Shown here piece after piece: positions 1,081 through 43,099 of a stretch of DNA of 64,000 nucleotides. Location of the stretch: contig NC_091991.1 of the NCBI RefSeq assembly GCF_044704955.1, positions 50,530,001-50,594,000 of the forward strand. Direction: 5' to 3'. The notes beneath the pieces were generated by a model. That model saw only the letters and a list, made by a program, of their open reading frames with translations. It was not told the origin of the DNA and did not search any database. Source of the DNA: Pristiophorus japonicus (Eukaryota). Position 1 is the first letter of the stretch, and the number at the start of each line of letters is the position of its first letter. The position numbers and the translations under genes are program-made.

Positions 1081-3309
1081 GGGCCCAAGTTTCCACACGC
1101 GCCTAGAACGGCGCAGTCCCGACCTGGACGCCCGTTTTTCGCGCCACAAAGTGTGCCTAAAAAAATCCTCGGTATTCTCCACCTCCCTGCAGGTCCTCTG
1201 GTCCTCAGCGCAGCGCAGCACAAGCTGTGGGGGGGCGGAGCCAGGTTCCTGCACTGAAAACAGTGCCGGGACCTCTGCACATGCGCGCTACAGTGGGCAC
1301 ACAAGTGCAGTAGCTCCAGGCGCCGAACTGTGTGAGAGGGGCCCCGAAGCACGCAGCCCCTAGCCCTGGCTGAATGGCCTCACTGGGGCTTCGTGAATAA
1401 GGCTCCTCCCACGGCCAGCTGCTGCTTTCCCCCCCCCCCCCCGCCCAGACCCGACACCCGCTCCCCCCTGCCTCCGGACCAGACCCGACACCCGCTCCCC
1501 CCCAGCCTCCGGACCAGACCCGACACCTGCTCCCCCCCTCCCCCCAACTGACCCGCGCTCCTGTTCCCGCTCCCCGCCTCACTGACTGGACCCGACCCGC
1601 ACTCCTGTTCCCGCTCCGCCCCCCCCCCCCCACCCGACTCGACCCGACCCGACTCGACCCGACCTGAGCTCCTGTTCCCGCTCCCCACCTCCCCGACTGG
1701 ACCCGACCCGACCCGACCCGACCCGCGCTCCTGTACCCGCTCCCCGCCCCCCCGACTGGACCCGACCCGACCCGCGCTCCTGTTCCCGCTCCCCACCTCC
1801 CCGACTGGACCCGACCCGACCCGACCCGACCCGCGCTCCTGTTCCCGCTCCCCACCTCCCCGACTGGACCCGACCCGACTCGACCCGACCCGCGCTCCTG
1901 TACCCGCTCCCCGCCCCCCCGACTGGACCCGACCCGACCCGCGCTCCTGTTCCCGCTCCCCACCTCCCCGACTGGACCCGACCCGACTCGACCCGACCCG
2001 CGCTCCTGTACCCGCTCCCCGCCCCCCCGACTGGACCCGACCCCACCCGCGCTCCTGTTCCCGCTCCCCACCTCCCCGACTGGACCCGACCCGACCCGAC
2101 CCGCGCTCCTGTACCCGCTCCCCGCCCCCCCGACTGGACCCGACCCGACCCGCGCTCCTGTACCCGCTCCCCACCTCCCCGACTGGACCCGACCCGACCC
2201 GCGCTCCTGTACCCGCTCCCCGCCCCCCCGACTGGACCCAACCCGACGCGCGCTCTCGCCCCCCGACCCGACCCCCCCCCCCCCACTGGACCCGACCCGA
2301 CCCAACTCCCGGAATGGATCCGACCTGACCTCCCCCCCCCTCNNNNNNNNNNNNNNNNNNNNNNNNNNNNNNNNNNNNNNNNNNNNNNNNNNNNNNNNNN
2401 NNNNNNNNNNNNNNNNNNNNNNNNNNNNNNNNNNNNNNNNNNNNNNNNNNNNNNNNNNNNNNNNNNNNNNNNNNNNNNNNNNNNNNNNNNNNNNNNNNNN
2501 NNNNNNNNNNNNNNNNNNNNNNNNNNNNNNNNNNNNNNNNNNNNNNNNNNNNNNNNNNNNNNNNNNNNNNNNNNNNNNNNNNNNNNNNNNNNNNNNNNNN
2601 NNNNNNNNNNNNNNNNNNNNNNNNNNNNNNNNNNNNNNNNNNNNNNNNNNNNNNNNNNNNNNNNNNNNNNNNNNNNNNNNNNNNNNNNNNNGACCCGACC
2701 CGAACCGAACCGAACCTCCCCGACCCGACCCAACCCAACGCCACCTACCTGTAAATCTGGTGCTGGGGATGGGCCCTGCCCGAGGTCTCGGGCCCGGCCC
2801 GTTCAGCCTTCGGTCCTGAAAGGCCTGCCTGAAGCATTTTCACACAGGTAGGAAGATGGTTTATTTAATCTTTTCTTTGCATATAAATGTTTATTCAGGT
2901 TGGATTTATTTGTATAATATTTGTATAAGTATAAATAAGGATTTATTATAGAATTTAATGACTTCCCTTCCCCCCACCCGCCCCCCCCCCACCTCGTTCT
3001 GGACGCCTAATTTGTAACCTGCGCCTGATTTTTTAATGTGTAGAACAGGTTTTTTCAGTTCTACAAAAATCTTCACTTGCTCCATTCTACTTTAGTTTGG
3101 AGTACGTTTTCACTGTGGAAACTTTCAAATCAGGCGTCAGTGGCCGGACACGCCCCCTTTTGAAGAAAAAATTCTGTTCCAAAGTAGAACTGTTCTACCT
3201 GACTAGAACTGCAGAAAAAAAAATGTGGAGAATTGCGATTTCTAAGATAGTCCGTTCTCCACCAGTTGCTCCTAAAAATCAGGCGCAAATTATGTGGAAA
3301 CTTGGGCCC
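1081..3309. mobile_element. Non-autonomous TIR DNA transposon (PIF/Harbinger-like MITE) inserted in Gypsy A pol
   Basis: Perfect 17-bp TIRs: GGGCCCAAGTTTCCACA (1081-1097) and TGTGGAAACTTGGGCCC (3293-3309), with AT on both flanks. The Gypsy coding sequence (SQDP...LSRVKNC) is split across it. The superfamily is inferred from the GGGCCC ends. Confidence 0.85.
1445..2740. repeat. GC-rich minisatellite (CCCGA pentamers within roughly 50-60 bp units) inside the MITE, spanning an assembly gap (N at 2343-2691)
   Basis: Repeated units gactggacccgacccgacccgcgctcctgt[at]cccgctcccc; 349 Ns. Confidence 0.95.
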
Positions 3310-6085
3310 ATAAAGGGGTCCTGGCTCATCCAGGTTTTGATCTGCCGGGCAGTGACTAGTGATTGTTCACTCTCAAATGTTTCCATAACCATGGCTAAAT
3401 CTGCGGGCTGCGCCATTTCCACCCCCATGGTGGGCAATGGCAGCCTACTGAGAGCATCAGCGCAGTTTTCTGTGCCTGTCCTGTGGCGGATGGCGTAGTT
3501 GTATGCAAACAATGTGAGGGCCCATCTCTGGATGTGGGCCGATGCATTGGTATTTATCTCTTTACTCTCGGAAAACAGGGATATGAGTGGCTTATGGTCA
3601 GTTTCCAATTAGAATTTTAGCCCAAACAGATGTTGATGCATTTTCTTTATCCCACAGACACACGCTAACGCTTTGTTTTCAATCATGCTGTCGGCTCTCT
3701 CAGCCTTAGACAGACTCCTGGATGCGTAAGCAACCAGTTGCAATTTCCCCAAATCATTCGCTTGTTGCAATACACACCCGACGCCATATGATGACGCATC
3801 ACATGCTAGTACCAAACACTTACATGGATCATACAACATAAGCAATTTGTTTGAGCATAACAATTTTCTTGGCTTTTGCCCCATGCCCATTCATCCCCTT
3901 TATGCAATAAGACATGAGTGGTTCTAACAGTGTGCTGAGACCTGGTAAGATGTTACCAGAGTACTTCAGGAGTCCTAGAAACGACCGCAGCTCTGTCACG
4001 TTCTGTGACCTCGGTGCGTTCTCGATTGCCTCTGTCTTTGAGTTGGTGGACCTGATGCTGTCCGCTGCTATCCTCCTTCTCAAGAACGCCACTTCAGGTG
4101 CCAGGATAACGCACTTCGAGCGTTTTAACCTGAGCCCCACGTGGTTGAGTCGACTAAGAACCTCCTCCAGGTTCTACAGATGCTCGACTGTGTCCCGACC
4201 TGTGACCAAGATATTGTCCTGGAAGACCACGGTGCGCGAGACTGACTTCAGTAAGCTTTCCATGTTTCTCTGGAATATTGCTGCCACTGATCAAATTCCA
4301 AACGGGCATCTGTTATAAATAAAAAGATCTTTGTGCATGTTGATGCATGTGAGGCCCTTCGATGATTCCTCCAGTTCCTGTGTCATGTAGGCTGAAGTCA
4401 AATCCAGGTTCGTGAACATCTTTCCTCCTGCCAGCATTGCAAAGAGGTCGTCGGTCTTTGGTAGTGGATATTGGTCCTGCAGGGAGAAACGATTGATAAT
4501 TACTTTGTAATCGCCACAGATTCTGACGGTGTTGTCTCCTTTGAGGACTGGGACAATAGGACTGGCCCACTCGTTGAACTCGATGGGTGAAATTATGCCC
4601 TCTCTTTGCAGCCAGTCTAGCTCGATCTCTATCCTTTCTCTCATCATGTACGGTACTGCTCTCGCCTTGTGATGGATGGGTCGCGCCCCTGGAATTAGGT
4701 GGATCTGCACTTTTGCTCCTTGGTATTTCCCGATGCCTGGTTCGAACAGCAAAAGGAATTTATTTAAGACCTGGGCACACAAAGTGTCATCAGCAGGCGA
4801 TAGCTCTCAGATGTCATCCCAGTTCCAGCGTATCTTTCCCAGCCAGCTCCTGCCAAGCAGTGTGGGACCATCGCCCGGTACCACCCAGAGTGGTAGTTTG
4901 TGCACCGCTCCATCGTAGGAGACCTTTACGGTAGCACTGCTGATTACGGGAATCAGTTCTTTTGTGTAAGTTCTTAGTTTCTTGTGAACTGGATTTAAGA
5001 CTGTCCTTTGAGGCCTTGTTGCACCACAATCTTTCGAATGTCTTTTTGCCCATGATGGACTGGCTCACGCCTGTGTCCAGCTCCATTGACACTGGGAGTC
5101 CATTTAGTTCAACATTCAGCATTATCGGAGGACACTTTGTGGTGAATGTGTGCACCCCATGTACCTCTGCCTCCTCGGTCTGAGGCTCTGGTTCATTGTG
5201 ATCCTCCGTGGATCTATCCTCCTCTGCAACATGGTGGTTTGCAGGACTAACAGGATTTGCAGCTCGCCTGTACATACATTGGAGTTGTCCCATTGTTCCA
5301 CAGCCCTTGCAAACATACCCTTTGAATCGGCATGAATGGAAATGATGATCACCCCCGCAGCGCCAACAAGGTGTTAATGGCCTTGCATTCATCACCCTTG
5401 ATGGTGTACTCTGAGACATCTGTGGATGTGCAGCTGCAGGCATGTGTGACCTGCCCTGTATGTTGTGAGTCGAAAACAACATCACTTTGTTCACAGTACT
5501 TGTAGTAGCACTTCTGTGCTGAGAGATTTGCTTCGTATTGTCACTGGTGGCAATGAATGCCTGGGCTATCGCTATAGCCTTACTCAAGATTATGGTCTCT
5601 ACAGTCAAAAGTTTGCGAAGTATGGTTTCGTGGCCAATGCCAAGTACAAATAAGTCTCTGAGCATGTGCTCCAAATGTCCTTCAAATTCGCAATATTCTG
5701 CAAGGCGTCTTAGCTCGGCGACATAACTCACCACTTCCTGGCTTTCAGATCTTTTGTAGGTGTAGAACCGGTAACTCACCATCAGAACACTTTCCCTCAG
5801 TTTCAAATGCTCCCGGACCAGTGTACACAAATTATCGTATGATTTCTCCGTGGGTTTCGCTGGAATCAGCAGATTTTTCATGAGGCCATACGTTGGTGCC
5901 CCACAGATTGTGAAGAGAATCGCCCTTCGTTTGGCAGCATTCTCTTCTCCATCCAGCTCGTTGGCTACGAAGTATTGGTCGAGTCGCTCCACAAAGGTTT
6001 CCCAATCATTTCCCTCTGAGAAGTTCTCCAGGATGTCCACTGTTCTCTGCATCTTTGGGTTTGTTATCTGTATCTTGTCGCCCGT

Positions 6086-6295
6086 TGTTATGTAGAGAAA
6101 GAGTCAGACTGAACACTGTGAGCTCAAAGTAAAGTGTGACCTTGGTCTTTTATTGCAGGTCTCCAGAGTGCCTCTCCAACCTATGAGGCCTCCTTAAATA
6201 CCTGTGCTCCCAAGGGATTATGGGATCCCTTGGGACTCCATGGGATGAGCCCGCTGGTGGCTGAAAAGAGTATATACAAGCTTACATATATAACA
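6086..6295 (-). repeat. 5' LTR of Gypsy A (210 bp)
   Basis: TGTTA...TAACA inverted termini, with a degenerate PBS (GGGCGACAAGA on -) directly before the gag ATG at 6052. Confidence 0.8.
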
Positions 6296-9200
6296 GACAC
6301 AACCACAGACTTGGTGGCGATTCCGCTGGTGCTTTACTAAGCTGCATGCAAGCGTTGCATTGATGCACACATGATTCCAGATCAGTCAATTCCAGGCCAC
6401 CATACATGAGACCTGGTAATGGCTTTCATCATGACAATACCAGGATGCATGCTATGTAGATCATGCACAAATTTCTCTCTGCCTTTCTTGGGTATAACAA
6501 CACGATTACCCCAAAGTATACAATCTGATTGAATGGATGGTTCGTCATTGCGACGGATGTAAGGTTTGGTCTCCTCACACATTTGCTTGAGTATGGCAGA
6601 CCAACCACCACTAAGGACACAATGTTTCACAACCAATAATATCGGGTCCTGGCTGGTCCAGGTCTTAACTTGTTGAGCCGTGACAGGGGTTCCTTCACTT
6701 TCAAAAGCATCCATGACTAACAGTAGGTCTGCCGGTTGTGGCGTTTCCACCTCCGGTGTGGGCAATGGCAGATGGCTCAATGCATCGGCACAATTCTCAG
6801 TGCCAGGTCTATGGCGAATGACATAATCATAGGCAGATAATGTCAGCGCCCACTTCTGGATGCGGGACGACGCATTGGTATAGATACCTATGTTTTCCGA
6901 AAACAATGAAATGAGTGGCTTGTGATCTGTTTCCAGTTCAAACCGAAGACCAAACAGGTACTGATGCATCTTTTTAACCCCATACACACAGACTAGTGCT
7001 TCTTTCTTGATCATACTGTAGGCTCTTTCCGCCTTTGACAAACTTTTTGAAACATACGCAACAGGTTGTAATTTGCCCGACTCATTAGCTTGTTGGAGCA
7101 TGCAATCCTTTTGGCTAAGATCATGCGTAACTGACCTGACAGGGGAGTAACCATGACCAGAAAGTGGTTCTCCCTGGATCAGGAAGGTGGTTCTCCTATG
7201 CTTTTTGGAAATAGGAGGTGGGTGGGGGGCTTGACCCATCCCCTCCATGGCACGAACCTGGTATTGCAGTACTTCCAGGAACGGTGCTTGGGCTCTAGGC
7301 CTTTTGGCTAAGAGCATTGGCGCAGAGTGATCCTTGACAGGTGCAAGGTGACCTCTGGCGTTTGTGATCTGACAAAGAATTGGAACGATTGGCAATGAAT
7401 AAATAAAAAAATAAAAAAAATTAGCTTGTTGGAGCACGCAACCAACTCCATATGACGAAGCATCACAACTAGACGTTTACTCGGATCATAATGTACCGGC
7501 AGCTTGTTAGAGCAAAGCAGATTAGTAGCTTTCTCAAAAGGTCTATCTTGAGATGCACCCCAAACCCAGTTGTCGCCTTTTCTTAGCAGCATGTGCAGTG
7601 GCTCTAATAAGGTGCTCAATCTAGGTAAGAAATTACTGAAGTAGTTGAGTAGACCAAGGAACGAACGCAGCTCCATCACATTCTGAGACTTGGGTGGCCT
7701 TGGTTTTTGAGTCCGTGGGCCTGATACCATCAGCAGCAATTTTCCTCCCCAGGAATTTGACTTCCAGTGCCATGAAGACGCACTTCGAGCATTTCAGTCT
7801 GAGTCCCACTTTGTCCAGATGATGTAGAACCGCTTCCAGGTTGTTCAGATGTTCGACGGAGTCATGACCTGTGACCAGTATGTTATCTTGGAACACGACG
7901 GTTCTGGGGACAGACTTCAGTAGACTCTCCATGTTCCTCTGAAATATGGCTGCAGCCGAGCGAATTCCAAAAGGGCACCTGTTATAGATAAACAGTCTTT
8001 TATGAGTGTTGATGCACGTAAGTTTTTTCGACGTATCGACCAGCTCCTGTGTCATGTAGGCCGACGTCAGATCCAGTTTGGTGAACAACTTACCGCCCCC
8101 CCCCCCCCCGCCCCACCGGCCAGCGTTGCAAACAGGTCATCAGCCTTCGGTAACAGGTATTGATCCTGTTTCAAAACTTGGTTGATCGTAACCTTGTAGT
8201 TTCCACAAATCCTGACAGTGCCATCACTTTTCAATACTGGAACAATGGGGCTGGCCCATTCGTTAAATTCAACCGGTGATATGATCCCTTCACGCTGGAG
8301 TCTCTCCAGTTCGATTTCAATCTTCTCCCTCATCAGGTACGAAACTGCTCGAGCTTTATGATGGACGGGTCTTGCATCCGAGTCCACGCGGATCTGCACC
8401 TTGGCTCCCGTGAAGTTGCCGATGCCTGGTTCAAACAGCAAGGGTACTTGCTCTGAACCTGAGCACATGGAATATCCTCCGACGACGATGCTTTAATCTC
8501 GTTCCAGTTCCATTTGATTTTTTCTAACCAGTTCCTGCCAAACAGCATTGGACCATTGCCTGGAACAATCCATAATGGTAAATCGTGAACCGCACCATCA
8601 TACGACACCTTGATTAGTGCACTGCCAATCATCGTTATGAGTTCTTTAGTGTACGTACGCAACTTGGCATTGACTGGACTCAGCTTAGGCCTCACATCCT
8701 TAGTATCTCACAGCCTGTCGAATGTCCTCTGGCTCATCATTGATTGACTTGCACCCGTGTCCAATTCCATCGATACTGGCACACCATTAAGTTTTACATT
8801 AATCATTATCGGTTGGCTCTTTGTTAGAAATGAATACAGTCTATACACTTCCTCCTCTGGTATCTCGGATTGTATATCTGGATTCGCGCTAGACTAGTCA
8901 TCATCCTTCACATTGTGTGTCGCAGCACGCTTGCTCACTTGCGGACTCATGCACTGGAGATGCCCCATTCTCGAACAGCCTTTACAAATATACTGTTTAA
9001 ACCAACACTGATGATGCCGATGATTTCCCCCACAACGCCAACACGGTGATATCGGATTAATTCCCGTTGGCAGAGTTTGAGCAGCCACAGGCTTCGCGTA
9101 TGCAGTCGGGTAGGTCCTGCCATATGCAGCTCTGCCAAACGATGATACTATTTTCTTTACAGTACTTGCCGAGTTCTGATTTTTCAATGATAATCTGCTT

Positions 9201-9944
9201 TAAGCTTTTGTCCGTCGTCATGCATGATTGGGCAATCGTGATGGCCTTGCTCAAATCCAGCATCTCCACCGCCAGTAGCTTACATATATCACCTCGTGGT
9301 TGATGCCGATTACAAAGAAGTCCCACAGCATGTCTGCCAGCATAGTTTCGGACTTACACGGTCCAGCTAGACGTCATGGGTTGGCAATGAATTCTGATAC
9401 CTCCTGGCCCTCAGAACGAACGTGCATATAGAATCGATATCTTGAGATGATGATGCCTTCATCTGGTTTAAGATGGTCACGTACCAGAGCACACAATGTT
9501 TCATAGTCCTTGTCCGTTGGACTTAAAGGAGAGAAGAGATTCTTTGAGTCCATAGATTTTAGGACCGCAAACAGTGAGGAGGACTGCCCGGCGCCGAACT
9601 GCGTCTGCCTCTTTCTCCATTTTGTTGGCCACGAAGTACTGGTCCAAGCGGGCTGCAAAGTCTGCCCAATCTTCTCTCTCCAGAATTCCAATTGTGCTAA
9701 TTTTTGCATGCGAAGGTTCTTGTTACCTCGTTGCTAAATGTTGTGTATGCAATAACTCAATAGACTGAATACTGCAAACTCCGAACAGGTACAAACCTGG
9801 CTGTACTTTATTAGGGCCCAAAGTGATTACATTACAAGATGGCTGGCCTTTTATACCTGGGCCGCACACGTGTGCACACAGCCCAATGACCTCTGACAGT
9901 GGTGCCACCTGGTGGCTAGTAAACCCAAGCATACATACATGACA
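6296..9944 (-). mobile_element. Gypsy LTR retrotransposon B, decayed and cut in integrase where the Gypsy A LTR begins
   Basis: Gag (RDHLKP, CWRCGGNH), RT (LDLTSAY, VVFQDNILV), RNase H and integrase zinc finger (LHSMHPGIVMMKA..HVWWPGID). 5' LTR at 9739-9944 (TGT...ACA) with a degenerate PBS. Confidence 0.92.
7106..7419 (+). mobile_element. U2/U1 snRNA-derived chimeric poly(A) retroposon (SINEU-like) inserted in Gypsy B RNase H
   Basis: 22-bp TSD ATTAGCTTGTTGGAGCA[T/C]GCAA at 7084-7105 and 7420-7441. U2 5' piece 7107-7123, U1 5' pieces 7128-7174 and 7177-7196, U2 3' half 7200-7287, second U2 5' piece 7293-7316, then AATAAA and an A-rich tail at 7398-7420. Confidence 0.88.
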
Positions 9945-16490: not shown

Positions 16491-16738
16491 TGTCATGTAT
16501 CTTACATTATTATGCATAACTGTATCCTAACATGCTATACATGACTGTAATAAGATATGACCTGTAACAACCAGCAGACCTTACCACCAGGGGTGCACTT
16601 GCAAGAGACAGGTATATAAGGGCAGGTCTCAGGCAAGTACAGCATTTCAGAGCTGTGAAATAAAGGTGCAGGTCCAGAGTGACCTTGACTTCACTACATG
16701 CCTCGTGTGAATCTGTACTGAGGGGACAGGACTTTACA
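16491..16738 (+). repeat. 5' LTR of Gypsy C
   Basis: Direct repeat of 25527-25774; contains TATATAA and AATAAA. Confidence 0.95.
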
Positions 16739-19700
16739 GTGGCGACGGATTACGGGATTACAGAATCCACAGAATGGCGAACAACGGATCAGATGAAAAG
16801 TACAATGCGGGAGACAATTGGGAGGACTTTATAGAAAGGCTCCAGCAAAGCTTTGTAACCAAAGACTGGTTAGGCGACGATAAGGCAGACAAGAGAAGAG
16901 CCCATCTCATGACCAGCTGTGGCTCGAAAACATACGCTTTAATGAAGGATCTGTTGGCACCTGAGAAACCAGCAAGCAAGTCGTTTGAAGAATTGAGCAC
17001 ACTGGTAAGAGACCACCTGAAGCCAGCGAGCAGCCTACACATGGCCAGACATAGGTTCTACAACTACAGACGCTGTGTGGGCCAGAGCATACCCGACTTC
17101 GTGGCGGAACTTCGGAGGTTGGCTAGTTTATGTGAGTTCTCCGATGAACTGAGGAGAGAAATGCTGAGAGACTTTTTCATTGAAGGAATAGGCCATGCAG
17201 GCATATTCCGAAAGCTCATAGAGACCAAGAACCTGACCTTAGAGGCAGCAGCACTGGTTGCACAGACATTCTTGGTAGGGAAAGAAGAAACGAGGTTGAT
17301 TTACAATGCAGGTACGACAACTAACGAAATATCGGAACAAGAAGTTCACAGCACTAAACAAGCTGCTATCCCCACACACAGACAAAACCGGGAGAATAGG
17401 TTCTCGACAGCAGGCAGAAGCCATCAAGGGCCACAGGAACAGCCGTTCACACCTCATCAACCCACAATGTGAGCAATCAACTACAAACTGAGAGAAGCTC
17501 AAGAGAGATCAGCCAGACGCAGCTCATTCTTTGGAAACTCTTTGAACAATGGAACAGGTCTGTGCTGGAGGTGTGGGGGTGGGCACTCGGCAAGGGGATG
17601 TCGATTTCAGCAGGCTGTTTGCAGAAATTGTGAATATACAGGGCATTTGGCCCGCATGTGCAAAAAAACGGCAGCTCGGCTGGTATTCGAATCGGATGGG
17701 TCGGAAAGCGGACCAGAAGATGGTGGGGACAGTACCCGGGACACCGGTGTACAGCGGGTCAACACGATCAATGGCCGCTGCTCCTACAACAGGACGCCTC
17801 CTATAATGATGAGGGTCCTACTCAAAAGGATATCTGTCAACATGGAGCTGGATATGGGAGCGAGTCAATCTCTCATGGGCGCTCAACAATTTGAACAACT
17901 GTGGCTGCATAAAAGAGACAGACCAAAACTCACAAGGGTCGACACCACACTAAGGACCTATACCAAAGAAATCGTACCAGTCCTCGGCAGTGCCATGCTC
18001 TCTGTCACACACAAAGGGACAGTGAACCGACTTCCCCTGTGGATTGTCCCCGGAGACCCCCCAGCACTGCTGGGGAGAAGCTGGCTGGCAAAACTAAACT
18101 GGAAATGGGATGATGTCCATGCCATGTCATTAGAGGAACGGACCTCCTGCTCAACAGTTATAAAGCGATTTGAACATCTCTTTCAGCCAGGTGTGGGCAC
18201 TTTCAAAGGGGCCAAAGTCAAAATCTACATCACACAGGATGCTAGACCGGTCCATCACAAGGCCAGAGCTGTACCCTATGTGATGAGGGAAAAGATTGAA
18301 CACGAACTAGACAGGCTTCTGCGGGAAGGCATTATATCACCTGTGGAATTTAGCAACTGGGCAAGTCCCATCGTCCCAATCATGTAGCCTGATGGATCCG
18401 TATGAATCTGTGGGGACGACAAATCTACCATAAACAGAGTCTCCCTACAGGACCAGTACCCGCTGTCCAGAGCGGAAGACTTATTTGCCACATTGGCTGG
18501 AGGTAAACTTTTCTCAAAATTAGACCTCACATCTGCGTATATGACGCAAGAATTGACCGAGGAATCCAAGCTACTCACCACCATCAACACACATCGAGGC
18601 CTTTTCATGTACAATCGATGCCCATTCGGCATCAGGTCGGCAGCTGTCATATTCCAGCGCAACATGGAGAGTCTGCTCAAGTCCATCCCGGTTGGATCGG
18701 GTAGGCCTACGAGTCAAGAAATCCAAGTGCCTGTTTCTCGCACCCGAGGTTGAATTTTTGGGAAGAAGGATTGCCGATGATGGAATCCGCCCAACAGAGT
18801 CCAAAACAGAAGCAATTCACCTGGCACCCAGGCCCCGGAATGTCTCAGAACTGCGCGCCTTTCTCAGGCTACTCAATTACTTTGGGAACTTTATGCAGAA
18901 CTTAAGCACGCTGCTGGAGCCTCTCCACGTGCTACTCAGAAAGGGGTGCGATTGGTTTTGGGGGGACATAAGAACATAACATAAGAATTAGGAACAGGAG
19001 TAGGCCATCTAGCTCCTCGAGCCTGCTCCACCATTCAATAAGATCATGGCTGATCTGGTCGTGGACTCAGTTCCACTTACCCGCCCGCTCCCCGTAACCC
19101 TTAATTCCCTTATTGGTTAAAAATCTATCTAACTGTGACTTGAATACATTCAATGAGCTAGCCTCAACTGCTTCCTTGGGCAGAGAATTCCACAGATTCA
19201 CAACCCTCTGGGAGAAGAAATTCCTTCTCAACTCGGTTTTAAATTGGCTCCCCCCGTATTTTGAGGCTGTTCCCCCTAGTTCTAGTCTCCCCGACCATTG
19301 GAAACAACCTCTCCGCCTCTATCTTATCGATCCCTTTCATGATTTTAAATGTTTCTATAAGATCACCCCTCATCCTTCTGAACTCCAACGAGTAAAGACC
19401 CAGTCTACTCAATCTATCATCATAAGGTAACCCCCTCACCTCCGGAATCAGCCTAGTGAATCGTCTCTGTACCCCCTCCAAAGCCAGTATATCCTTCCTT
19501 AAGTAAGGTGACCAAAACTGCATGCAGTACTCCAGGTGCGGCCTTACCAATACCCTATACAATTGCAGCAGGACCTCCCTGCTTTTGTACTCCATCCCTC
19601 TCGCAATGAAGGCCAACATTCCATTCGCCTTCCTGATTACCTGCTGTACCTGCAAACTAACTTTTTGGGATTCATGCACAAGGACCCCCAAGTCCCTCTG

Positions 19701-22039
19701 CATCTCAGCATGTTGTAATTTCTATCCATTTAAATAATATTCCCTTTTACTGTTTTTTTTCCCAAGGTGGATGACCTCACACTTTCCGACATTGTATTCC
19801 ATCTGCCAAACCTTCGCCCATTTGCTTAACCTATCCAAATCTCTTTGCAGCCTCTCTGTGTCCTCTACACAACCCGCTTTCCCACTAATCTTAGTGTCAT
19901 CTGCAAATTTTGTTACACTACACTCTGTCCCCTCTTCCAGGTCATCTATGTATATTGTAAACAGTTGTGGTCTCAGCACCGGTCCCTGTGGCACACCACT
20001 AACCACCGATTTCCAACCCGAAAAGGACCCATTTATCCCGACTCTCTGCTTTCTGTTAGCCAGCCAGTTCTCTATCCATGTTAATACATTTCCTCTGACT
20101 CCGCGTACCTCTATCTTCTGCAGTAACCTTTTGTGTGGCACCTTATCGAATGCCTTTTGGAAATCCAAATGCACCATATCCATCGGTACACCTCTATCCA
20201 CCATGCTCGTTATATCCTCAAAGAATTCTAGTAAATTAGTTAAGCATGATTTCCCCTTCATGAATCCATGCTGCGTCTGCTTGATTGCACTATTCCTATC
20301 TAGATGTCCCGCTATTTCTTCCTTAATGATAGTTTCAAGCATTTTCCCCACTACAGATGTTAAACTAACCGGCCTATAGTCACCTGCCTTTTGTCTGCCC
20401 CCTTTTTTAAACAGAGGCGTTACATTAGCTGCTTTCCAATCCGCTGGTACCCCCCCAGAGTCCAGAGAATTTTGGTAGATTATAACGAATGCATCTGCTA
20501 TAACTTCCGCCATCTCTTTTAATACCCTAGGATGCATTTCATCAGGACCAGGGGACTTGTCTACCTTGAGCCCCATTAGCCTGTCCAGCACTACCCCCCT
20601 AGTGATAGTGATTGTCTCAAGGTCCTCTCTTCCCACATTCCCGTGACCAGCAATCTTTGGCATGGTTTTTGTGTCTTCCACTGTGAAGACCGAAGCAAAA
20701 TAATTGTTTAAGGTCTCAGCCATTTCCACATTTCTCATTATTAAATCCCCCTTCTCATCTTCTAAGGGACCAACATTTACTTTAGTCACTCTTTTCCATT
20801 TTATATATCTGTAAAAGCTTTTACTATCTGTCTTTATGTTTTGCGCAAGTTTACCTTCGACATCTATCTTTTCTTTCTTTATTGCTTTTTTAGTCATTCT
20901 TTGCTGTTGTTTAAAATTTTCCTAATCCTCTAGCTTCCCACTAACCTTGGCTACCTTATACGCATTGGTCTTTAATTTGATACTCTCCTTTATTTCCTTG
21001 GTTATCCATGGCTGGTTATCCCTTCTCTTACTGCCTTTCTTTTTCACTGGAATATATTTTTGTTGCGCACTATGAAAGAGCTCCTTAAAAGTCCTCCACT
21101 GTTCCTCAATTGTGCCACCGTTTAGTCTATGTTTCCAGTCTACTTTAGCCAACTCTGCCCTCATCCCACTGTAGTCCCCTTTGTTTAAGCATAGTACGCT
21201 CGTTTCTGACACAACTTCCTCACCCTCAATCTGTATTACAAATTCAACCATACTGTGATCACTCATTCCGAGAGGATCTTTTACTAGGAGATCGTGTATT
21301 TTTCCTGTCTCATTACACAGGACCAGATCTAAGATAGCTTGCTCCCTTGTAGGTTCTGTTACATACTGTTCTAAGAAACAATCCCGTATGCATTCTATGA
21401 ATTCCTCCTCCAGGCTACCCCGTGCGATTTGAGTTGACCAATCGATATGTAGGTTAAAATCCCCCATGACTACTGCCGTTCCTTTTTCACATGCCTCCAT
21501 TATTCCCTTGATTATTGCCCGCCCTACCGTGAAGTTATTATTTGGGGGCCTATAAACTCCGCCCACCAGTGACTTTTTCCCCTTACTATCTCTAATCTCC
21601 ACCCACAATGATTCAACATTTTGTTCATTAGAGCCAATATCGTCTCTCACAACTGCCCAGAAATCATCCTTTATTAACAGAGCTACCCCACCTCCTTTCC
21701 CTTCTTGTCTATCTTTCCGAATCGTCAGATACCCTTGTATGTTTAATTCCCAGTCTTGGCCACCCGGCAACCATGTTTCTGTAATGGCCACCAAATCATA
21801 CCCATTTGTAATGATTTGTGCCGTCAACTCATTTACTTTATTTCGAATGCTGCGTGCATTTAGGTAGAGTGTTTTAATCCTAGTTTTTAAACCATGCAGC
21901 CCCTTTATAGTCAGTGCCCTTTTTGTTCTTTGCCTTGGGTTTCTCTGCCCTCCACTTTTACTCATCTCTTTTCTGTCTTTTGCTTTTGTCTCCTTTTTGT
22001 TTCCCTCTCTCCCTGCATTGGTTCCCATCCCCTGCCATA

Positions 22040-22987
22040 TTAGTTTAACTCCTCCCCAACAGCACTAGCAAACACTCCCCCTGGGACATTGGTTCTGGTC
22101 CTGCCCAGGTGCAGACCGTCTAGTTTGTACTGGTCCCACCTCCCCCAGAACCTGTTCCAATGCCCCAGGAATTTGAATCCCTCCCTGCTGCACCACTGCT
22201 CAAGCCACGTATTCATCTGCGCTATCCTGCGATTCCTACTCTGACTAGCACGTGGCACTGGTAGCAATCCCGAGATTACTACTTTTGAGGTCCTACTTTT
22301 TAATTTAGCTTCTAGCTCCTTAAATTCGTCTCGTAGGACCTCATCCCTTTTTTTACCTATGTCGTTGGTACCAATGTGCACCACGACAACTGGCTGTTCT
22401 CCCTCCATTTTTAGAATGTCCTGCATCTGCTCTGAGACATCCTTGACCCTTGCACCAGGGAGGCAACATACCATTCTGAAGTCTCGGTTGCGGCCGCAGA
22501 AACGCCAATCTATTCCCCTTACAATTGAATCCCCTATCACTATCGCGCTCCCACTCTTTTTCCTGCCCTCTTGTGCAACAGAGCCAGCCACGGTGCCATG
22601 AACTTGGCTGCTGCTGCCCTCCCCTGATGAGTCATCCCCCTCAACAGTACTCAAAGCAGTGTATCTGTTTTGCAGGAGGATGACCGCAGGGAACCCCTGC
22701 ATTACCTTCCTTGCACTGCTCTTCCTGCTGGTCTTCCATTTCCTAGCTGGCTGTGGACCCTTCACCTGCGGTAAGACCAACTCGCTACACGTGCTACTCA
22801 CGTCATTCTCAGCATCGTGGATGCTCCAGAGTGAATCCACCCTCAGCTCCAATTCCGCAACGCGGTCCGTCAGGAGCTGGAGCCGGATACACTTCCCGCA
22901 CACATAGTCGTCAGGGACACTGGAAGTGTCCCTGAGTTCCCACATGGTACAGGAGGAGCATATCACTTGACCGAGCTCTCCTGCCAT
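22040..22987 (-). CDS. CR1 ORF1p (N-terminal zinc finger/leucine zipper plus SGNH esterase-like domain), 315 aa
   Basis: CSSCTMW...CGKC, heptad LQLLTDRVAELELRVDSL, IGDSIVR, HIGTND, DGLHL; uninterrupted ORF. Confidence 0.85.
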   Translation of the reverse strand: MAGELGQVICSSCTMWELRDTSSVPDDYVCGKCIRLQLLTDRVAELELRVDSLWSIHDAENDVSSTCSELVLPQVKGPQPARKWKTSRKSSARKVMQGFPAVILLQNRYTALSTVEGDDSSGEGSSSQVHGTVAGSVAQEGRKKSGSAIVIGDSIVRGIDWRFCGRNRDFRMVCCLPGARVKDVSEQMQDILKMEGEQPVVVVHIGTNDIGKKRDEVLRDEFKELEAKLKSRTSKVVISGLLPVPRASQSRNRRIAQMNTWLEQWCSREGFKFLGHWNRFWGRWDQYKLDGLHLGRTRTNVPGGVFASAVGEELN

Positions 22988-23175
22988 GACTTAACCCTTA
23001 GATATCCTTAAATTGGCAACAACAATGTTAAACGGTTCCTTACTGATATAAAAAATAAAAAGAATAGCTACTCACCAATCACCAGCCAATCACTTACCCC
23101 CTTGGCTGTGACGTCACCTTTTTATTTATTTCTACTTCTTTTTTGCCTTCTCTCCCCGCTGCAGCTGCATAAGTA

Positions 23176-23578
23176 CGCCTCTCGCTGCCGCTGGGCCTTT
23201 ATAGGCCTCACCAACCACGCACTCCCGCCTCTCGGACTGCCGCCGCCTCTCGCTGCCGCTGGGCCTTTATAGGCCTCACCAACCACGCACTCCCGCCTCT
23301 CGGACTGCCGCCGCCTCTCGCTGCCGCTGGGCCTTTATAGGCCTCACCAACCACGCACTCCCGCCTCTCGGACTGCCTCCGCATCTCGCTGCCGCTGGGC
23401 CTTTATAGGCATCACCAACCACGCACTCCCGCCTCTCGGACTGCCGCCGCCTCTCGCTGCCGCTGGGCCTTTATAGGCCTCACCAACCACGCACCCTCGC
23501 CTCTCGGACTGCCGCTGCCTCTCGCTGCCGCTGGGCCTTTATAGGCCTCACCAACCACGCACTCCCGCCTCTCGGACT
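23176..23578 (-). repeat. About 6 x 68-bp tandem repeat in the CR1 5'UTR
   Basis: CTCGCTGCCG recurs at 23181, 23249, 23317, 23385, 23453 and 23521. Confidence 0.95.
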
Positions 23579-25526
23579 CCAGGACGCCCAGGAACGCGCC
23601 TTCAATAAGGCACACAACCTTCTGTGTTCCAACTGTGTTTTGACTTTCTTTGACCCACGTAAAAAGCTAGTTCTCACATGCGATGCGTCAGCCTATGGGG
23701 TCGGGTGCGTTTTGCAACATGTCAATAGTGCGGCAAATTACAACCCATAGCTTATGCCTCCAGGTCACTTTCGCAGGCGGAGCACGGGTACAGAATGGTA
23801 GAGAAGGAGGCGTTTGCGTGCGTGTACGGTGTCAAAAAGATGCACCAATACCTTTTCGGGGCCAAGTTCGTGTTAGAAACCGACCACAAGCCCCTCACGT
23901 CCCTCCTATCCGAGAGCAGGGCAATAAACGGCAACGCCTCGGCGCGAATTCAACGGTGGGCACTCATGCTGGCGTCCTACGACTATACCATAAGGCACAG
24001 ACCAGGCACAGACAACTGTGCCGACACGTTCAGCGGGCTACCCCTGGTGACCAGGGAAGGGTCTGACGAACAGGACTGTGAGATAGTCATGGCAATCAAT
24101 GCCTTTGAGTCCACAGGTTTGCCCATGACGGCTCGCCAAATCAGAGTCTGGACGGCCAGCGACCCCACGTTATCCTTAGTAAAAAGATGAGTCCTAACCG
24201 GTGACTGGGCAGAGGCTCGCGATTCCTGCCCCGAGGAATTAAAACCCTTTCACAGGCGCATGCATGAGCTATCACTACAAGCAGACTGCCTGATGTGGGG
24301 CAGCCGAGTAGTCATGCCTCTGCGAGGCAGAGAGGCATTTGTCCGGGAGCTCCACCACGAGCACCAGGGGATCGTTCTCATGAAGGCCATAGCCAGATTC
24401 CACGTCTGGTGGCCTGGTATTGATGCGGACCTGGAGCTCTGCGTCCGAAGGTGCACCATTTGTGCCCAACTCAGCAATGCCCCCAGGGAGGCTCCACTGA
24501 GCCCCTGGCCCTGGCCTACCAAACCGTGGTCGCGGGTGCACGTAGACTATGCGGGCCCATTCATGGGCAAAATGTTCCTCGTAGTTGTAGATACATTTTC
24601 AAAGTGGATCGAATGCACCATTTTAAACTCGAGCACAACCTCCACCACTGTGGAGAACCTCGCAACCATGTTTGCAACGCACGGAATCCCTGACATATTG
24701 GTCAGTGACAATGGTCCGTGCTTCACCAGCGCAGAATTCCAAGACTTTATAATTGACCACGGCATAAATCACGTCAAGACGGCACCGTTCAAGCCGGCCT
24801 CCAACAGCCAGGCGGAGAGAGCAGTGCAAATCATTAAACAAGGCATGCTTAAAATCCAAAGTCCCACGCTGCAGGGTCGCCTGTCGCGACTGCTGCTGGC
24901 ATACAGATCTCGTCCGCACTCATTGACTGGGATCCCCCCCGTTGATGAAACTGTTGATGAAAAGGACTTTAAAAACAAGGCTCTCATTAATCCTCCCAGA
25001 CATGCACGAAATCGTTGAGGCAAAGCGCCGTAAGCTGACTGAGTACCATGACAGAAATTCGAGGGGGAGATGGAATGAGATAGGAGACAAAATGTTTGTA
25101 CTAAACTATGGCAGGGGTCCCAAATGGCTTGCAGGGACAGTAACGGGCAAGGAAGGAAACAGGCTACTGGTAGTACAAATGGACAATGGCAAAACCTGCC
25201 GGAGGCATGTCGACCAAGTCAAAAGCAGATTTACCAACAACATTGCGGAACCAGAGGCAGACTACAATGTGGAACTCGCACCACACCTGGTGGACAGACA
25301 GAGGGAACAACCTGAGGAAAGGGCAATCCCAACAGACAGCCCAGGCGAGTCAACAACAATCACACCAATTGAAACAGACAGCCCAGGGGAGATATCAGCA
25401 ACCACACCCAAAGAAAAACAGACACCAAGGCCAACAACTGAACCACAACTCAGACGCTCCACGCGAGAGCGTAGACCACCTGAGAGACTGAACCTATAAA
25501 GACAATAAGACCTTGTGGGAGGATGA

Positions 25527-34140: not shown

Positions 34141-34560
34141 GGAATAGATTTTTGTTTCGGCCAACTTCAGCTGCACCAGGTTCAACTGAAGCAAGGGGAT
34201 CATGCTGTAACTTCTGTGTATTGTCTGAATTAGAACAGCCGTAAAAGAACTTGCTTTGTTAATATTGGGAATGTTTTTTATATTTTTAGAAGAAACTTAA
34301 AACTATTTTGGCTTCCGGTCATTGCACTTCCTTATTATAAAAGAGCCAAGTTGTGCAGACCATGCATGAGTTTACTAATTTCTAATGTGTATATTACAAT
34401 AACCATCATTAACTATACTGTCAATTTGTATCGTTTAGGCCAAAAAAATCTTAGCGCAGCTAAGGTGGACTTGTTGCGTCTAATTGGTTTTTATTATACC
34501 TAACAGTTCCCATGTTCCTTTATGTTTAAACTGCAGGGCGAAAGAAGGGAGGTTGTAGAC

Positions 34561-34780
34561 ATGTCCCTGAACGTTGATGCTTCGTTTGACAAACAAACGC
34601 AATATATTTTGTTGAGATTTCTTCAGGAAAAGAAAGTTGAAAATGGTACCTACAAGCAAGAAATGCAGAAACTTGAGAAAGAAGTTACAAAGGGATCCAG
34701 TTTTGATGACGATATTCAGACAGATGGGCATTGCTCTCAGGAATCTGTTTTTCCTACAACCTTTGATGATTTGGAAGAAG
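34561..34780 (+). CDS. BID: BH3-interacting domain death agonist, coding exon 1 (exon starts at 34537)
   Basis: MSLNVDASFDKQTQYILLRFL...DDIQTDGHCS contains the caspase-8 site IQTD|G (mammalian LQTD|G); donor GAAG|GTATTT, phase 1. Confidence 0.88.
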
Positions 34781-34789
34781 GTATTTTAC

Positions 34790-36134
34790 TATAAGCCCAC
34801 TGACTCCCACGGCTACCTTGATTACACTTCCTTCCACCCAGTTTCCTGTATAGACACTATTCTATTCTCCCAGTGTCTCTGTCGCAACTGTTCTGACGAT
34901 GCCACCATCCACAGCAGTGCTTCTGATATGTCTTCCACTTTCCTCAACCCAGGATTCCACTCCACTGTGGTTGACCAGGTACTTGACTGTCTCATTTCAC
35001 ACACTTCTACTCTCACCCCTTCCCCTCCCTCCCAGAATCACAATAGGATTCCCATTGTTCAGAGTGGGGTGGATGGGTTGACTGCGCAGATGGCGGTTGG
35101 TGGATGTGGTGTGGTTGGCTTCGCGGGGGCGTGGCTCCGGGGTGGCCGGGGCTGGGGGCTCGACATCCGGGGGTGTTCGGCATTTGGGAAGGATTCTGAT
35201 GGGACGGGGCGGGTTGGGTGGGTCCGGAGCCGGGGCGGGGGGCACGCTCTTGGAATGGGGGGTGGGTTGTTTGGGGCTGGGATTGGGGGAGACTTCTTCA
35301 CTCGGGGAGTTGTTGGCCTGTGGGGTTCCCTGCCACGGAGAGTTGTTGATGCCAGTTCGTTGGATGTGTTCGGGACGGAGTTGGGATGTGGTCCTTGCGG
35401 CTGGGAGGTTGTGGGGGTGTGGAGGGGGGCGGGTGCTGGGGTGGGTGATCAGCCATGATCTTGTTGAATGGCGGTGCAGGCTCGAATGGCCTACTCCTAC
35501 ACCTATTTTCTATGTTTCTATGTCTTTACCTTTTACCCCACCAGCCTCCACATTCAAGGGAGCATCCTCCAGCGCGATGCCACCACCAAACTCATCATCC
35601 CCTCCCCTCTCCGCATTCTGAAAGGACCGTTCCCTCCGCGACACGCTGGTCCAGTCACCCGCTCCCCTCCCCACGGCACCTTCCCGTGCAAGCGCAGGAG
35701 ATGCAACACCTGCCCTTTCACCTCCTCCCTTCCCGTCGTCCAGGATTGCAAATACGCCATCCAGGTGAAACACTGATCAACTTTTACTTCTTTCAATCTT
35801 GTATACTGTATTCGCTGCTCACTATGTGGTCTCCTCTACATTGGGGAGACCAAACACAGATAGAAACATGGAAACATAGAAAATAGGTGCAGGAATAGGC
35901 CATTCGGCCCTTCGAGCCTGCACCACCATTCAATACGATCCTGGCTGATCATTCCCTCAGTACCCCTTTCCTGCTTTCTCTCCATACCCCTTGATCCTTT
36001 ATAGAATTGGGTGATCACATTGCTGAACGCCTCCCCTTCAGCCCACATGCGTGACCATGAGCTTCCGGTCGTTTACCATTTTAATTCTCCGTCCCACTCC
36101 CACTCTGACCTCTCTGTCCTCAGTCTCCTACACT
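34790..36134 (+). mobile_element. Penelope-like element (RT thumb plus GIY-YIG endonuclease), decayed and interrupted by CR1-derived inserts
   Basis: YKPTDSHGYLDYTSFHP; HGTFPCKRRRCNTCP; LVYCIRC..CGLLYIGETK (GIY-YIG). Inserts at ~35057-35523 and ~35859-36000. Confidence 0.88.
35057..35523 (+). mobile_element. Internally deleted CR1 derivative with dense A-to-G hypermutation
   Basis: Reverting G to A restores a CR1 APE N-terminus (NKVDELTAQI..NGYDV...TETWLQGDQGWELNIQGY..FRKD) fused to the CR1 3' end; it ends in the normal CCTATTTTCTATGTTTCTATG tail. Confidence 0.88.
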
Positions 36135-36139
36135 AGGAG

Positions 36140-37815
36140 TACATAGGATATACAGCACAGAAACCAGTCCATGCCAGCGTTTATGTTCCACTCGAGCCTC
36201 CTCCCGTCTTTCCTCATCTACCTCTATCAGCATAACCCTCTATTCCCTTTTCCCTCATATGCTCATCTAGCCTCCCCTCAAATGCATCTATTCTATTCGC
36301 TTCAACTGCTCCCTGTGGTAGTAAGTTCCACATTCTCACCACTCTCTGGGTAAATAAGTTTCTTCTGAATTCCCTATTTGATTTCTTGGTAATTATCTTA
36401 TATTGATGGCCTCTAGTTATGCTTTCTCCCCCCCCCCCCCCACAGTGGAAGCATTCTTTCTGTATCTACTCAATCAAAACCTTTCATAATTTTAAAGACC
36501 TCTATTAGGTCACCCCCTCAGCCTTTTTTCAAGAGAAGAGAGACCCAGCCTGTTCGTTCTTTCCTGATGGGCATACTCTCGCATTTCTGGTATCATAGAA
36601 AACAAAGACAGAAAATAGGTGCAGGAGTAGGCCATTCGGCCCTTCGAGCCTGCACTGCCATTCAATATGATCATGCAACTTCAGTACCCCATTCCTGCTT
36701 TCTCTCCATACCCCTTGATCCCTTTAGCCGTAAGGGCCACATCTAACTCCTTTTGAATATATTTAATGAACTGGCCTCAACAACTTTCTGTGGTAGAGAA
36801 TTCCACAGGTTCACAATTCTCTGAATGAAGAAGTTTTTCCTCATCTCAGTCCTAAATGGCTTACCCCTTATCCTTAGACTGTGATCCCTGGTTCTGGACT
36901 TCCCCAACACTGGGAACATTCTTCCTGCATCTAACCTGTCCAATCCCGTCAGAATTTTATATGTTTCTATGAGATTCCCTCCCTCATTCTTCTAAATTCC
37001 AGTGAATATAAGCCCAGTCGATCCAGTCTTTTGTCATGTGTCAGTCCTGCCATCCTGGGAATCAGTCTAGTGAACCTTCACTGCACTCCCTCAATAGCAA
37101 GGATGCCTCTGATTAGGAGACCAAAACTGTACACAATATTCAAGGTGTGGCCTCACCAAGGCCCTGTACAACTGCAGTAAGACCTCACTGCTCCTATACT
37201 CAAATTCTCTCGCTATGAAGGCCAACATGCCATTTGCCACCTCCACCGCCTGCTGTACCAGCATGCCAACTTTCAATGACTGATGTACCATGATGCCCAT
37301 GTCTCGTTGCACCTCCCCTTTTCCTAATCTGTCACCATTCAGATAATAATCTGCCTTCCTGTTTTTGCCACCAAAGTGGATAACCTCACATTTATCTACA
37401 TTATACTGCATCTGTCCTGCATTTGCCCACTCACCTAACCTGTCCAAGTCACCCTGCAGCCTCTTAGCATCCTTCTCACAGCTCACACTGCCACCCAGCT
37501 TGGTGTCATCTGCAAACTTGGAGATATTACATTCAATTCCGTCATCTAAATCATTAATGTATATTGTAAGTAGCTGGGATCCCACCATTGAACCTTGCGG
37601 TACCCCACTAGTCACTGCCTGCCATTCTGAAAAGGACCTTGTAAATCTTCTCTGCACCCTCTCTCGTCTTTTTATAGTATGGCGACCAGAATTGTACACA
37701 GTACTCCTTTATGGTCTAACCAAGGTTCAATACAGGTTTAGCATAACTTCACTATTTTTCAATTCTATCCCTCTAGAAATAAACCCAAGTACTTGGTTTG
37801 CTTTTTTATGGCCTT
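36140..37815 (-). mobile_element. Two nested CR1 3' fragments (younger copy ~36595-37640)
   Basis: RT ORF 37091-37699 ([28 protein letters not shown]); CR1 3' tails at ~36140 and ~36595. Confidence 0.85.
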
Positions 37816-39024
37816 GTTAAGGCAATTAATATTTTAATAGGGCAAGAATCATTAAGAACATCACTGAAAACGTGTGGAATTCTTTATTTCCTAATACCAG
37901 TCTTTTGTTCCAGAAAAGAGAATTGTGAGGAAAATAAATCAGATGAGTGTTTTTTAAAAAAAAAATTGAAGTCCATTGCACCAAATGGGAAATCTAACCA
38001 CAATTTATCTGTAATATTAAATCTAGACTCAAATCGATGCAGTACTGTAAAGCTAAATACATCATGATGGTGGAGCACGAGCTTATCTTCAACCTGAAAA
38101 GCCATTTCCGTTTTCAATTTATCACATCACTTTAAAAAAATTTTGCAATAGTTCTTTATCTGATTTTTAATTTATCAATGTTTGTTTAATTTCAAGCAAT
38201 GTACTTTTAAAAATTAGTTTGAAAGCAAGGAGGTGTAGGAGTATGTTTTCTCTTGTGAAGATATTGAGGCAATCTGACCAGTGAGATGGATGTACACATA
38301 ACCTTAAACTGCAGCTTTTGTGGAGTTAAGCTTGATGACCTTTAGTCAGGCTGTATTTTAAGCAAAGCCCTCACTCAGATTAAAGGGGTGGAGGTGAGTC
38401 CACGGTATGATAGATTGCACATGGTCTACAGAGAGAGCAGGTTAGCTGGGCCAAATATTTTTGGCCGTTCCATGCTTTATTTGATTCATTTATTATATCC
38501 AAATTTTTCCCCTTTAACCTGACCCTCTTTCAGCCCCTCACCTGATCAATTTCAGTTCCCATTTCTACCCCAAATCACCATACAGTCTACCTTCAGTCTA
38601 CACATTTCTCAACTGCGAACTCCATTCATCCTGAGTAAGCTGCAAATGGACCAAATGCTTTTTTACTTGATATTACTATTGAAGTAAAATTCCAATTTTT
38701 CAACAAATTTAATTTGAGAAGCATTTTTCCAAAAAAACCAAGTAAAAGTGTTTTAATATAGGCTGCTCAGATTCCGAACATCAAATTACTGATGTTTAGT
38801 TATTTTAATTAATGTATATACCACCTGAAATGCAAACCTGGCTTTCATGAGCACAGAAATTATATCTATACACATCACACAAGCACGAGTGGATTTCCCA
38901 CAGAAATTCAGGACAAAACAAAATTCTCTTAATGCATTAGTGATGTGTTTATAGGATGGAGATCTGCAGCTTCGAGAGCTTAAGGAGCTCCATCTGGTGG
39001 CAGAAGGGGGTTGCCGAACATATT

Positions 39025-43039: not shown

Positions 43040-43099
43040 GTGAGATGCCATAATCTATTTACTCAGTTTTTAGAAAAGTACAGATGCTACAAGAACACT

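What the first reader, a model, noticed from the sequence alone, without database searches (positions are those of the whole stretch)
7084..7441. U2-U1-U1-U2-U2 snRNA mosaic retroposon (SINEU-like) with a 22-bp TSD and poly(A) tail
Seen: a 314-bp insert between near-perfect 22-bp direct repeats interrupts Gypsy RNase H (CVLQQAN is duplicated). Against recalled vertebrate snRNAs it contains the U2 5' stem CCTTTTGGCTAAGATCA; a U1 5' end ACTGACCTGACAGGGGAGTAACCATGACCAGAAAGTGGTTCTCCC with the splice-site-pairing ACTTACCTG altered; a second U1 piece; a U2 Sm-site-like region through ACCTGGTATTGCAGTACTTCCAGGAACGGTGC; a second U2 5' piece; about 80 nt of unique tail; then AATAAA and an A-tract. The U2 branch-point-pairing region is replaced by U1 sequence. 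Established: U1/U2-headed SINEs (SINEU) are described from crocodilians, and a long TSD with poly(A) points to L1/Tx1-type mobilisation. Inference: an independent snRNA-derived SINE family, or the 3' end of a LINE carrying snRNA modules, in a probable cartilaginous fish. It may retain snRNP protein-binding stem-loops while lacking splicing function.
Basis: partly seen in the sequence, partly recalled or inferred. Interest (0 to 1): 0.85.

Follow-up and report, generated by a model that had tools for sequence, protein, structure and literature searches.

The report
Shark retroposon built from spliceosomal RNAs
A short mobile DNA insertion in a sawshark is stitched together from pieces of the U1 and U2 splicing RNAs, a design so far described in crocodilians, but only one copy was seen, so it is not yet shown to be a family.

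Summary
In the Japanese sawshark (Pristiophorus japonicus) a 314-bp insert at 7106-7419 sits antisense in a decayed Gypsy RNase H. It lies between 22-bp repeats (21 of 22 identical) that occur once in two paralogous Gypsy copies, so they are a true target-site duplication. The insert reads U2(13-35), U1(3-48), a partial U1 repeat, U2(101-185), U2(4-36), 72 unassigned bases, then a 22-nt A-rich tail. U2 and U1 were the only Rfam hits in 64 kb at E<=1, both below gathering score. It is a retroposon copy, probably inserted by a Tx1 LINE: the site is not L1-like and whale shark lacks full L1. Three clues favour a long-evolving family over a one-off chimera: modules more changed than the duplication (14 of 95 against 1 of 44, p 0.02-0.07), two changes shared by both U2 heads, and CpG loss. 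The design parallels crocodilian SINEU; I found no shark SINEU in 10 paper searches. The decisive test, copy number, could not be run: one copy in the window, proxy searches empty, Repbase and Dfam unchecked. It cannot act in splicing. Verdict: probable independent SINEU-like element, family status unproven.

The parts
7084..7105 (+). Left copy of the 22-bp target-site duplication (Gypsy RNase H coding sequence, antisense)
   Evidence: single copy in two paralogous Gypsy elements
7106..7129 (+). One unassigned T, then first U2 5' module (model about 13-35); lacks the 5' arm of stem-loop I and ends inside the branch-point pairing region
   Evidence: alignment; no U2 hit when searched alone; no fold alone; matches the second module
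7130..7174 (+). U1 5' module (model about 3-48): splice-site pairing region with one change, stem-loop I with an 11-pair stem and an altered loop
   Evidence: Rfam U1, E 5.7e-5; fold
7177..7196 (+). Second U1 piece (model about 28-47); alternatively U1 continues to about 57 and 35-47 is tandemly duplicated at a microhomology
   Evidence: internal repeat, 17 of 20 columns, 0 of 1000 shuffles
7197..7287 (+). Junction (7197-7201) and U2 3' domain (model 101-185): Sm-like U run lacking its A, stem-loop III re-paired as a 12-pair hairpin, stem-loop IV with consensus loop
   Evidence: Rfam U2, 32.9 bits, E 1.2e-5; hairpin z -2.54
7292..7325 (+). Second U2 5' module (model about 4-36), an extended hairpin; shares two changes with the first module
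   Evidence: Rfam U2 7-26, E 0.28; z -3.35; the part beyond model 26 was aligned by eye to the consensus printed
7326..7397 (+). 72-nt tail of unknown origin with a weak hairpin; candidate LINE-recognition tail
   Evidence: no Rfam hit; hairpin z -1.5; no match to the rest of the insert or the window
7398..7419 (+). A-rich tail, 19 A of 22, beginning with AATAAA
7420..7441 (+). Right copy of the target-site duplication
6303..9763 (-). Host: decayed Gypsy LTR retrotransposon (gag, RT, RNase H, start of integrase) broken into several reading frames; no LTR pair found

Best explanation
This is one copy of a non-autonomous, SINEU-like retroposon family that arose in sharks independently of crocodilians. 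SHOWN: an snRNA mosaic with an A tail was inserted with a 22-bp duplication into a Gypsy element. INFERRED: a polyadenylated RNA of about 330 nt was reverse-transcribed at a staggered cut by a Tx1-clade LINE (target-primed reverse transcription); this copy lost the first 12 nt of its U2 head. INFERRED history: an ancestral unit of U2 head, tail and A tail gained a U1 5'/U2 3' fusion upstream, then a second U2 head copied from its own lineage. INFERRED transcription: not by an internal Pol III promoter, but by Pol II from a promoter outside a master copy. The RNA is a structured passenger, not a working snRNA.
For: True duplication and empty sites. U1 and U2 are the only Rfam hits in the window. 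By-eye count on Rfam alignments: 14 of 95 upper-case consensus positions differ, against 1 change in 2 x 22 duplicated bases, p 0.02-0.03; p 0.06-0.07 on the most cautious count of 11. This suggests the modules had diverged before this copy inserted. Both U2 heads carry the same two changes, at consensus 30 and 32. CpG observed/expected is 6/18.9 in the insert against 0.57-0.71 in three Gypsy stretches. Whole-insert folding z -3.08, 0 of 100 shuffles as good. Three T runs of 4-5 and no A or B box match in the insert (box motifs recalled), as Kojima 2015 reports for SINEU. The same building steps are described for crocodilian SINEU-1, -2 and -3. The site is not L1-like; whale shark has Tx1 but no full L1; two crocodilian Tx1 families prefer LTR elements.
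Against: Only one copy seen in 64 kb. Searches with the translated insert found nothing real: 0 of 45 candidates, no candidate, 2 hits among 1.84 billion, both repetitive proteins matching at 35-38%; only 2 of 6 frames were tried. Rfam scores are below gathering. No shark U1 or U2 gene was available, so diverged snRNA variants or pseudogenes as direct templates are not excluded. One of the two shared changes needs a 2-nt gap. Without the A tail the folding z is -2.58, and 2 of 40 random window stretches scored lower. No Tx1 element was seen in the window, and the tail has no identified partner.
Confidence: 0.62

Rival explanations
1. One-off chimeric retrocopy: a LINE reverse transcriptase jumped between several snRNA or pseudogene transcripts in one event, or in a few events at a locus that never amplified.
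For: Single copy seen. U2 retrocopies are nearly all 3'-truncated, at single-stranded segments (57 of 58 human copies, Doucet 2015), as these heads are. snRNA chimeras with other RNAs are known.
Against: Needs four or more junctions. The modules look more diverged than the duplication, and the two U2 heads share changes, which two captures of canonical U2 would not give.
Confidence: 0.15
2. It is the 3' end, or an internal-deletion derivative, of a longer Tx1 LINE that carries U1/U2 modules.
For: Four crocodilian Tx1 families have U1 or U2 heads. 5' truncation is normal for LINEs. The 72-nt tail has no assigned source.
Against: The insert begins at U2 position 13, close to a natural RNA start. 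The described Tx1 snRNA modules are at 5' ends, not in 3' UTRs.
Confidence: 0.13
3. It is homologous to crocodilian SINEU, by ancient shared descent or horizontal transfer together with a Tx1.
For: Same module types and order. The U1 loop change at position 30 also appears in one SINEU-2 head variant quoted in Kojima 2015, and a TA at the U1/U2 junction is described there too (compared by eye).
Against: The rest of the quoted 26-nt head differs from the shark sequence. Kojima found no SINEU outside crocodilians. The target is Gypsy, not Mariner-N4_AMi.
Confidence: 0.06
4. Any further copies arose by hitchhiking: the insert was tolerated in frame in a still-mobile Gypsy and spread with it.
For: Insert plus one repeat is 336 bp (112 codons) and has no stop on the Gypsy frame; 115 of 5000 shuffles are open on that frame.
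Against: No protein of 171-2000 aa carrying this translation was found. The host is broken into several frames. The insertion falls inside the RNase H domain. The test was chosen after seeing the frame.
Confidence: 0.04

Closest known systems
Crocodilian SINEU-1 (C, D, G, H, J subfamilies; Kojima 2015, PMC4494074)
   Same: U2 and U1 heads added in series to a unit of short U2 head plus unrelated 3' part plus poly(A); partial duplication inside the U1 head; under 500 bp; T runs and no Pol III promoter.
   Different: Shark host; includes the U2 3' domain, as SINEU-2 and -3 do; 22-bp duplication against about 10 bp occasionally seen for SINEU-1; inserted in Gypsy. Homology of the 3' part was not testable.
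Crocodilian SINEU-2 and SINEU-3
   Same: SINEU-2 is a U1 5'/U2 3' fusion, like 7130-7287. SINEU-3 has a 32-bp U2 5' piece and an 83-bp U2 piece; here the pieces are 23-34 and 86 nt.
   Different: Here the fusion is embedded between two U2 heads and followed by a 72-nt tail; copy number unknown; no Mariner target.
snRNA processed pseudogenes and chimeras (Doucet 2015, PMC4476161)
   Same: 3'-truncated U2 pieces, target-site duplication, template switching.
   Different: Those are simple, made by L1 at TTTT/A sites; this has five snRNA pieces and a non-L1 site.
Keno and Utopia, U2-targeting LINEs (PMC4640811)
   Same: Utopia's downstream U2 flank starts at position 39 and Keno uses the same site; the two U2 heads here end at about 35 and 36.
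   Different: This copy is non-coding, is not in a U2 gene, and its heads end 2-3 nt short of 38.

Membership tests
SINEU | 5' head derived from U1 or U2 snRNA | tested here: met
   scores below gathering, and the first U2 head has no hit alone
SINEU | 3' poly(A) tail | tested here: met
   19 A of 22 at 7398-7419
SINEU | Short (under 500 bp) and non-coding | tested here: met
   314 bp; all three sense frames have stops; translated searches empty or spurious
SINEU | Retrotransposed by LINE machinery (target-site alteration) | tested here: met
   22-bp duplication with empty paralogous sites
SINEU | No internal Pol III promoter; internal T runs | tested here: met
   none of 6 A-box or 8 B-box matches in the window lies in the insert (motifs recalled); three T runs
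SINEU | Many dispersed copies sharing one structure (a family, not a single chimera) | not testable with these tools
   no genome-wide DNA search available; one copy in the window; proxies empty; indirect support only
SINEU | Mobilised by Tx1 (shared target preference or shared head) | tested here: inconclusive
   site not L1-like; Tx1 present in whale shark; no Tx1 partner seen; a single site cannot show preference
Crocodilian SINEU-1/2/3 families | Crocodilian host and preference for Mariner-N4_AMi | tested here: not met
   sawshark host; Gypsy target
Crocodilian SINEU-1/2/3 families | Sequence homology to the family consensus beyond the snRNA parts | not testable with these tools
   figures and supplement of PMC4494074 not available; no Repbase access
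Functional U2 snRNA gene | Full length, intact branch-point pairing region and Sm site, Rfam gathering score | tested here: not met
   38.9 bits against 46; branch-point region cut at about 35; C for A before the U run
Functional U1 snRNA gene | Free, intact 5' splice-site pairing end and four-stem body | tested here: not met
   25.4 bits against 69.5; pairing region internal and changed; only stem-loop I is clear
L1-made snRNA processed pseudogene | TTTT/A cleavage site | tested here: not met
   flank at 7070-7105 has no such site (consensus)

The most novel reading that the evidence does not exclude
Sharks carry a second, independently evolved multi-copy SINEU-type family whose master copies are transcribed by borrowing the U2 gene promoter. 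A copy landing in a U2 gene near the Keno site (position 38/39) is read from the U2 start and so gains a new U2 head of about 35 nt each round, which would explain the stacked heads and answer Kojima's open question of how promoterless SINEU are transcribed. The less bold part, an independent shark family by any transcription route, I put at about 0.55.
Probability: 0.15. Interest if true: 0.82.

Novelty: new variant of a known kind. Interest (0 to 1): 0.55.

Why it matters
In the papers I could read, SINEs with U1/U2 heads are reported only from crocodilians, and how they are transcribed without an internal promoter is stated as open (PMC4494074). A shark family would show that this class arose twice, as was reported for 7SL-derived SINEs in hagfish (PMC7245038). 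It would also give a second genome in which to test the source of the heads (template switching or promoter capture) and the partner LINE. If it is a single copy, it is an unusually complex chimeric retrocopy and of modest interest. It has no evident effect on the host: it lies in a decayed Gypsy about 27 kb upstream of the first detected BID coding exon.

Tried and rejected
Other copies by DNA: none in the window. An exact 24-mer from the second U2 head gave 0 matches in bacterial and archaeal genomes, which was expected and says nothing about sharks. The metagenome and viral contig collections were not searched, and no shark genome was available. Other copies by protein proxy: antisense frame, 0 of 45 candidates among longer proteins and 2 hits among 1.84 billion representatives, rejected as tandem-repeat proteins with 35-38% identity; one sense frame, no candidate; the other 4 frames were not searched. 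Origin of the tail: no Rfam hit and no internal match (398 of 1000 shuffles scored as well); a by-eye likeness of its hairpin base to U1 stem II in the consensus is unsupported. Likeness of the duplication to the U2 head: 173 of 1000 shuffles scored as well, rejected. The bacterial promoter scan and tRNA scan (0 genes) were uninformative. Other A-tailed insertions with a duplication in the window: my scan found only this one. Weak Rfam hits (RF_site5, U11, SNORD99, snR75 and others, E 0.14-9) were treated as chance. A 2019 review of transposable-element diversity, whose DOI I recalled, is not held.

Full report
Host and setting. The last exon of BCL2L13 at 59644-60483 (minus) is 100% identical over 280 aa to the Pristiophorus japonicus protein and 88% to the next shark. 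Three BID exons lie on the plus strand between 34.5 and 48 kb (which scanned 146 of 176 listed open frames). The rest of the window is mostly decayed Gypsy and CR1-like LINE sequence (the CR1 label is from my own knowledge of the esterase, endonuclease and RT order). The insert lies in a Gypsy copy on the minus strand at about 6303-9763 that is broken into several frames.

The insertion is real. The 22-bp repeats match at 21 of 22 positions. Comparable repeats appeared in 0 of 3 shuffled windows and in 11 of 320 bins of the real one, the other 10 being local arrays or transposon copies. Left and right flanks, compared separately with a paralogous Gypsy, overlap on a single copy of the site at 3756-3777. 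A second paralog also has it once. Both paralogs have C at the differing position, so the left copy probably changed after insertion. The insert splits the RNase H domain, antisense to it.

The snRNA pieces are real but degenerate. Across 64 kb, U2 and U1 were the only 2 of 4227 Rfam families at E<=1, both on the insert and both below gathering score. Sub-searches place U1 model 1-87 at 7128-7200 and U2 101-185 at 7202-7287. The second U2 head scores only E 0.28 and the first gives no hit alone, but they align with each other better than 1000 of 1000 shuffles, as do the two U1 pieces. The map is U2 13-35, U1 3-48, a partial U1 repeat, U2 101-185, U2 4-36, 72 unassigned bases and a 22-nt A-rich tail. 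The tail has no Rfam hit.

It cannot work in splicing. The U1 pairing end is internal and changed at position 6. The U2 branch-point region stops at about 35. The Sm-like U run has C in place of the consensus A. The first U1 loop differs from consensus, though its stem pairs well. The U2 stem-loop IV loop matches all 5 upper-case consensus positions, so binding of U2B'' there is possible (established knowledge; not tested).

Family or one-off? No direct test was possible. Indirect evidence leans to a family. First, I counted by eye 14 changes in 95 upper-case Rfam consensus positions, against 1 change in 44 duplicated site-lineages (p 0.02-0.03; 0.06-0.07 with the cautious count of 11, which corrects a miscount of one position). 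This uses a pan-eukaryote consensus, not shark genes. Second, both U2 heads differ from consensus in the same way at positions 30 and 32, which points to one diverged ancestor, although one match needs a 2-nt gap. Third, CpG is depleted (6 observed, 18.9 expected) relative to the host Gypsy stretches. Fourth, hairpins are kept or extended: z -3.08 for the whole insert and -3.35 for the second U2 head. Against this, without the A tail z is -2.58 and 2 of 40 random stretches scored lower. Only one copy is in the window, and protein-proxy searches in 2 of 6 frames found nothing real. Those proxies are weak, since a non-coding repeat is rarely predicted as protein.

Mechanism. The A tail and long duplication mark target-primed reverse transcription (shown in outline). 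The site lacks the L1 TTTT/A pattern. The whale shark paper reports no full L1 but Tx1 repeats (it cites PMC4350176, whose main text had 0 occurrences of the term). Crocodilian SINEU are attributed to Tx1, two families of which prefer LTR elements. So Tx1 is the likely driver (inferred). Three T runs and no A or B box argue against Pol III, so transcription probably starts outside a master copy (inferred). The heads could come from template switching, as Kojima proposes and as truncated U2 retrocopies suggest. They could also come from insertion into U2 genes near the Keno/Utopia site at 38/39; the heads end 2-3 nt short of it, so this stays a minority idea.

Comparison. Kojima 2015 describes the same building steps in crocodilians: serial U1 and U2 heads, a U1 5'/U2 3' fusion, 32-bp and 83-bp U2 pieces, a partial U1 duplication and a dimer. 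It works like a SINEU and meets the structural criteria. It is not filed as a member of the crocodilian families: host and target differ, homology is untested, and multi-copy status is unshown.

Literature seen. PMC4494074: parts 1-4 of 5, covering the main text; figures and supplement not seen, and they hold the sequences needed for a homology test. PMC4640811: passages and section 6. PMC4476161: passages and section 8. PMC8455134: passages, a search of 12 of 24 supplements, and file 17; its repeat library could not be read. Passages only: PMC5786205, PMC5381603, PMC7245038, PMC5499810, PMC8143547, PMC4350176, PMC12054243, PMC4455052, PMC4758252. Ten searches showed no report of SINEU in cartilaginous fish; a 2025 paper still cites crocodilians only. 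The library lacks most subscription journals, Repbase Reports and Dfam, so an existing entry is not excluded.

Verdict. Observation confirmed; interpretation partly supported. A probable independent SINEU-like retroposon in a shark, confidence 0.62, with copy number as the missing test. Novelty: new variant of a known kind. Interest 0.55.

Noticed in passing
window 7084-7441, minus strand: Insert plus one repeat is exactly 112 codons and has no stop on the Gypsy pol frame; 115 of 5000 shuffles are open on that frame. Probably chance, as the host is broken elsewhere.
   Followed up: partly
window 7084-7096: The start of the duplicated target resembles the first 12 positions of the Rfam U2 consensus by eye; a paralogous Gypsy has a similar stretch, so it is host sequence. 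A shuffle test against the second U2 head was not significant.
   Followed up: partly
window 34504-48053 (+) and 59644-60483 (-): BID exons tail-to-tail with the last BCL2L13 exon.
   Followed up: partly
window 40017-40187, minus strand: A 27-aa match to Pfam CNBH_CNNM2_C (E 3.4e-7) inside a BID intron; possibly a pseudogene fragment.
   Followed up: no
window 19722-22990, minus strand: Long LINE copy with GDSL-esterase ORF1, endonuclease and RT in three open stretches separated by stops.
   Followed up: no
window 16711-25499: A plus-strand Gypsy (gag-RT at 16711-18979, RNase H-integrase at 23671-25499) is interrupted by that LINE and by a 68-bp tandem array at 23176-23578.
   Followed up: no
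window 3316-9763: Two related Gypsy copies, 69-71% identical, lie head to tail on the minus strand; the host copy stops early in integrase where the next begins.
   Followed up: partly
window 1456-2691: GC-rich degenerate tandem array ending at a 349-base assembly gap (2343-2691).
   Followed up: no
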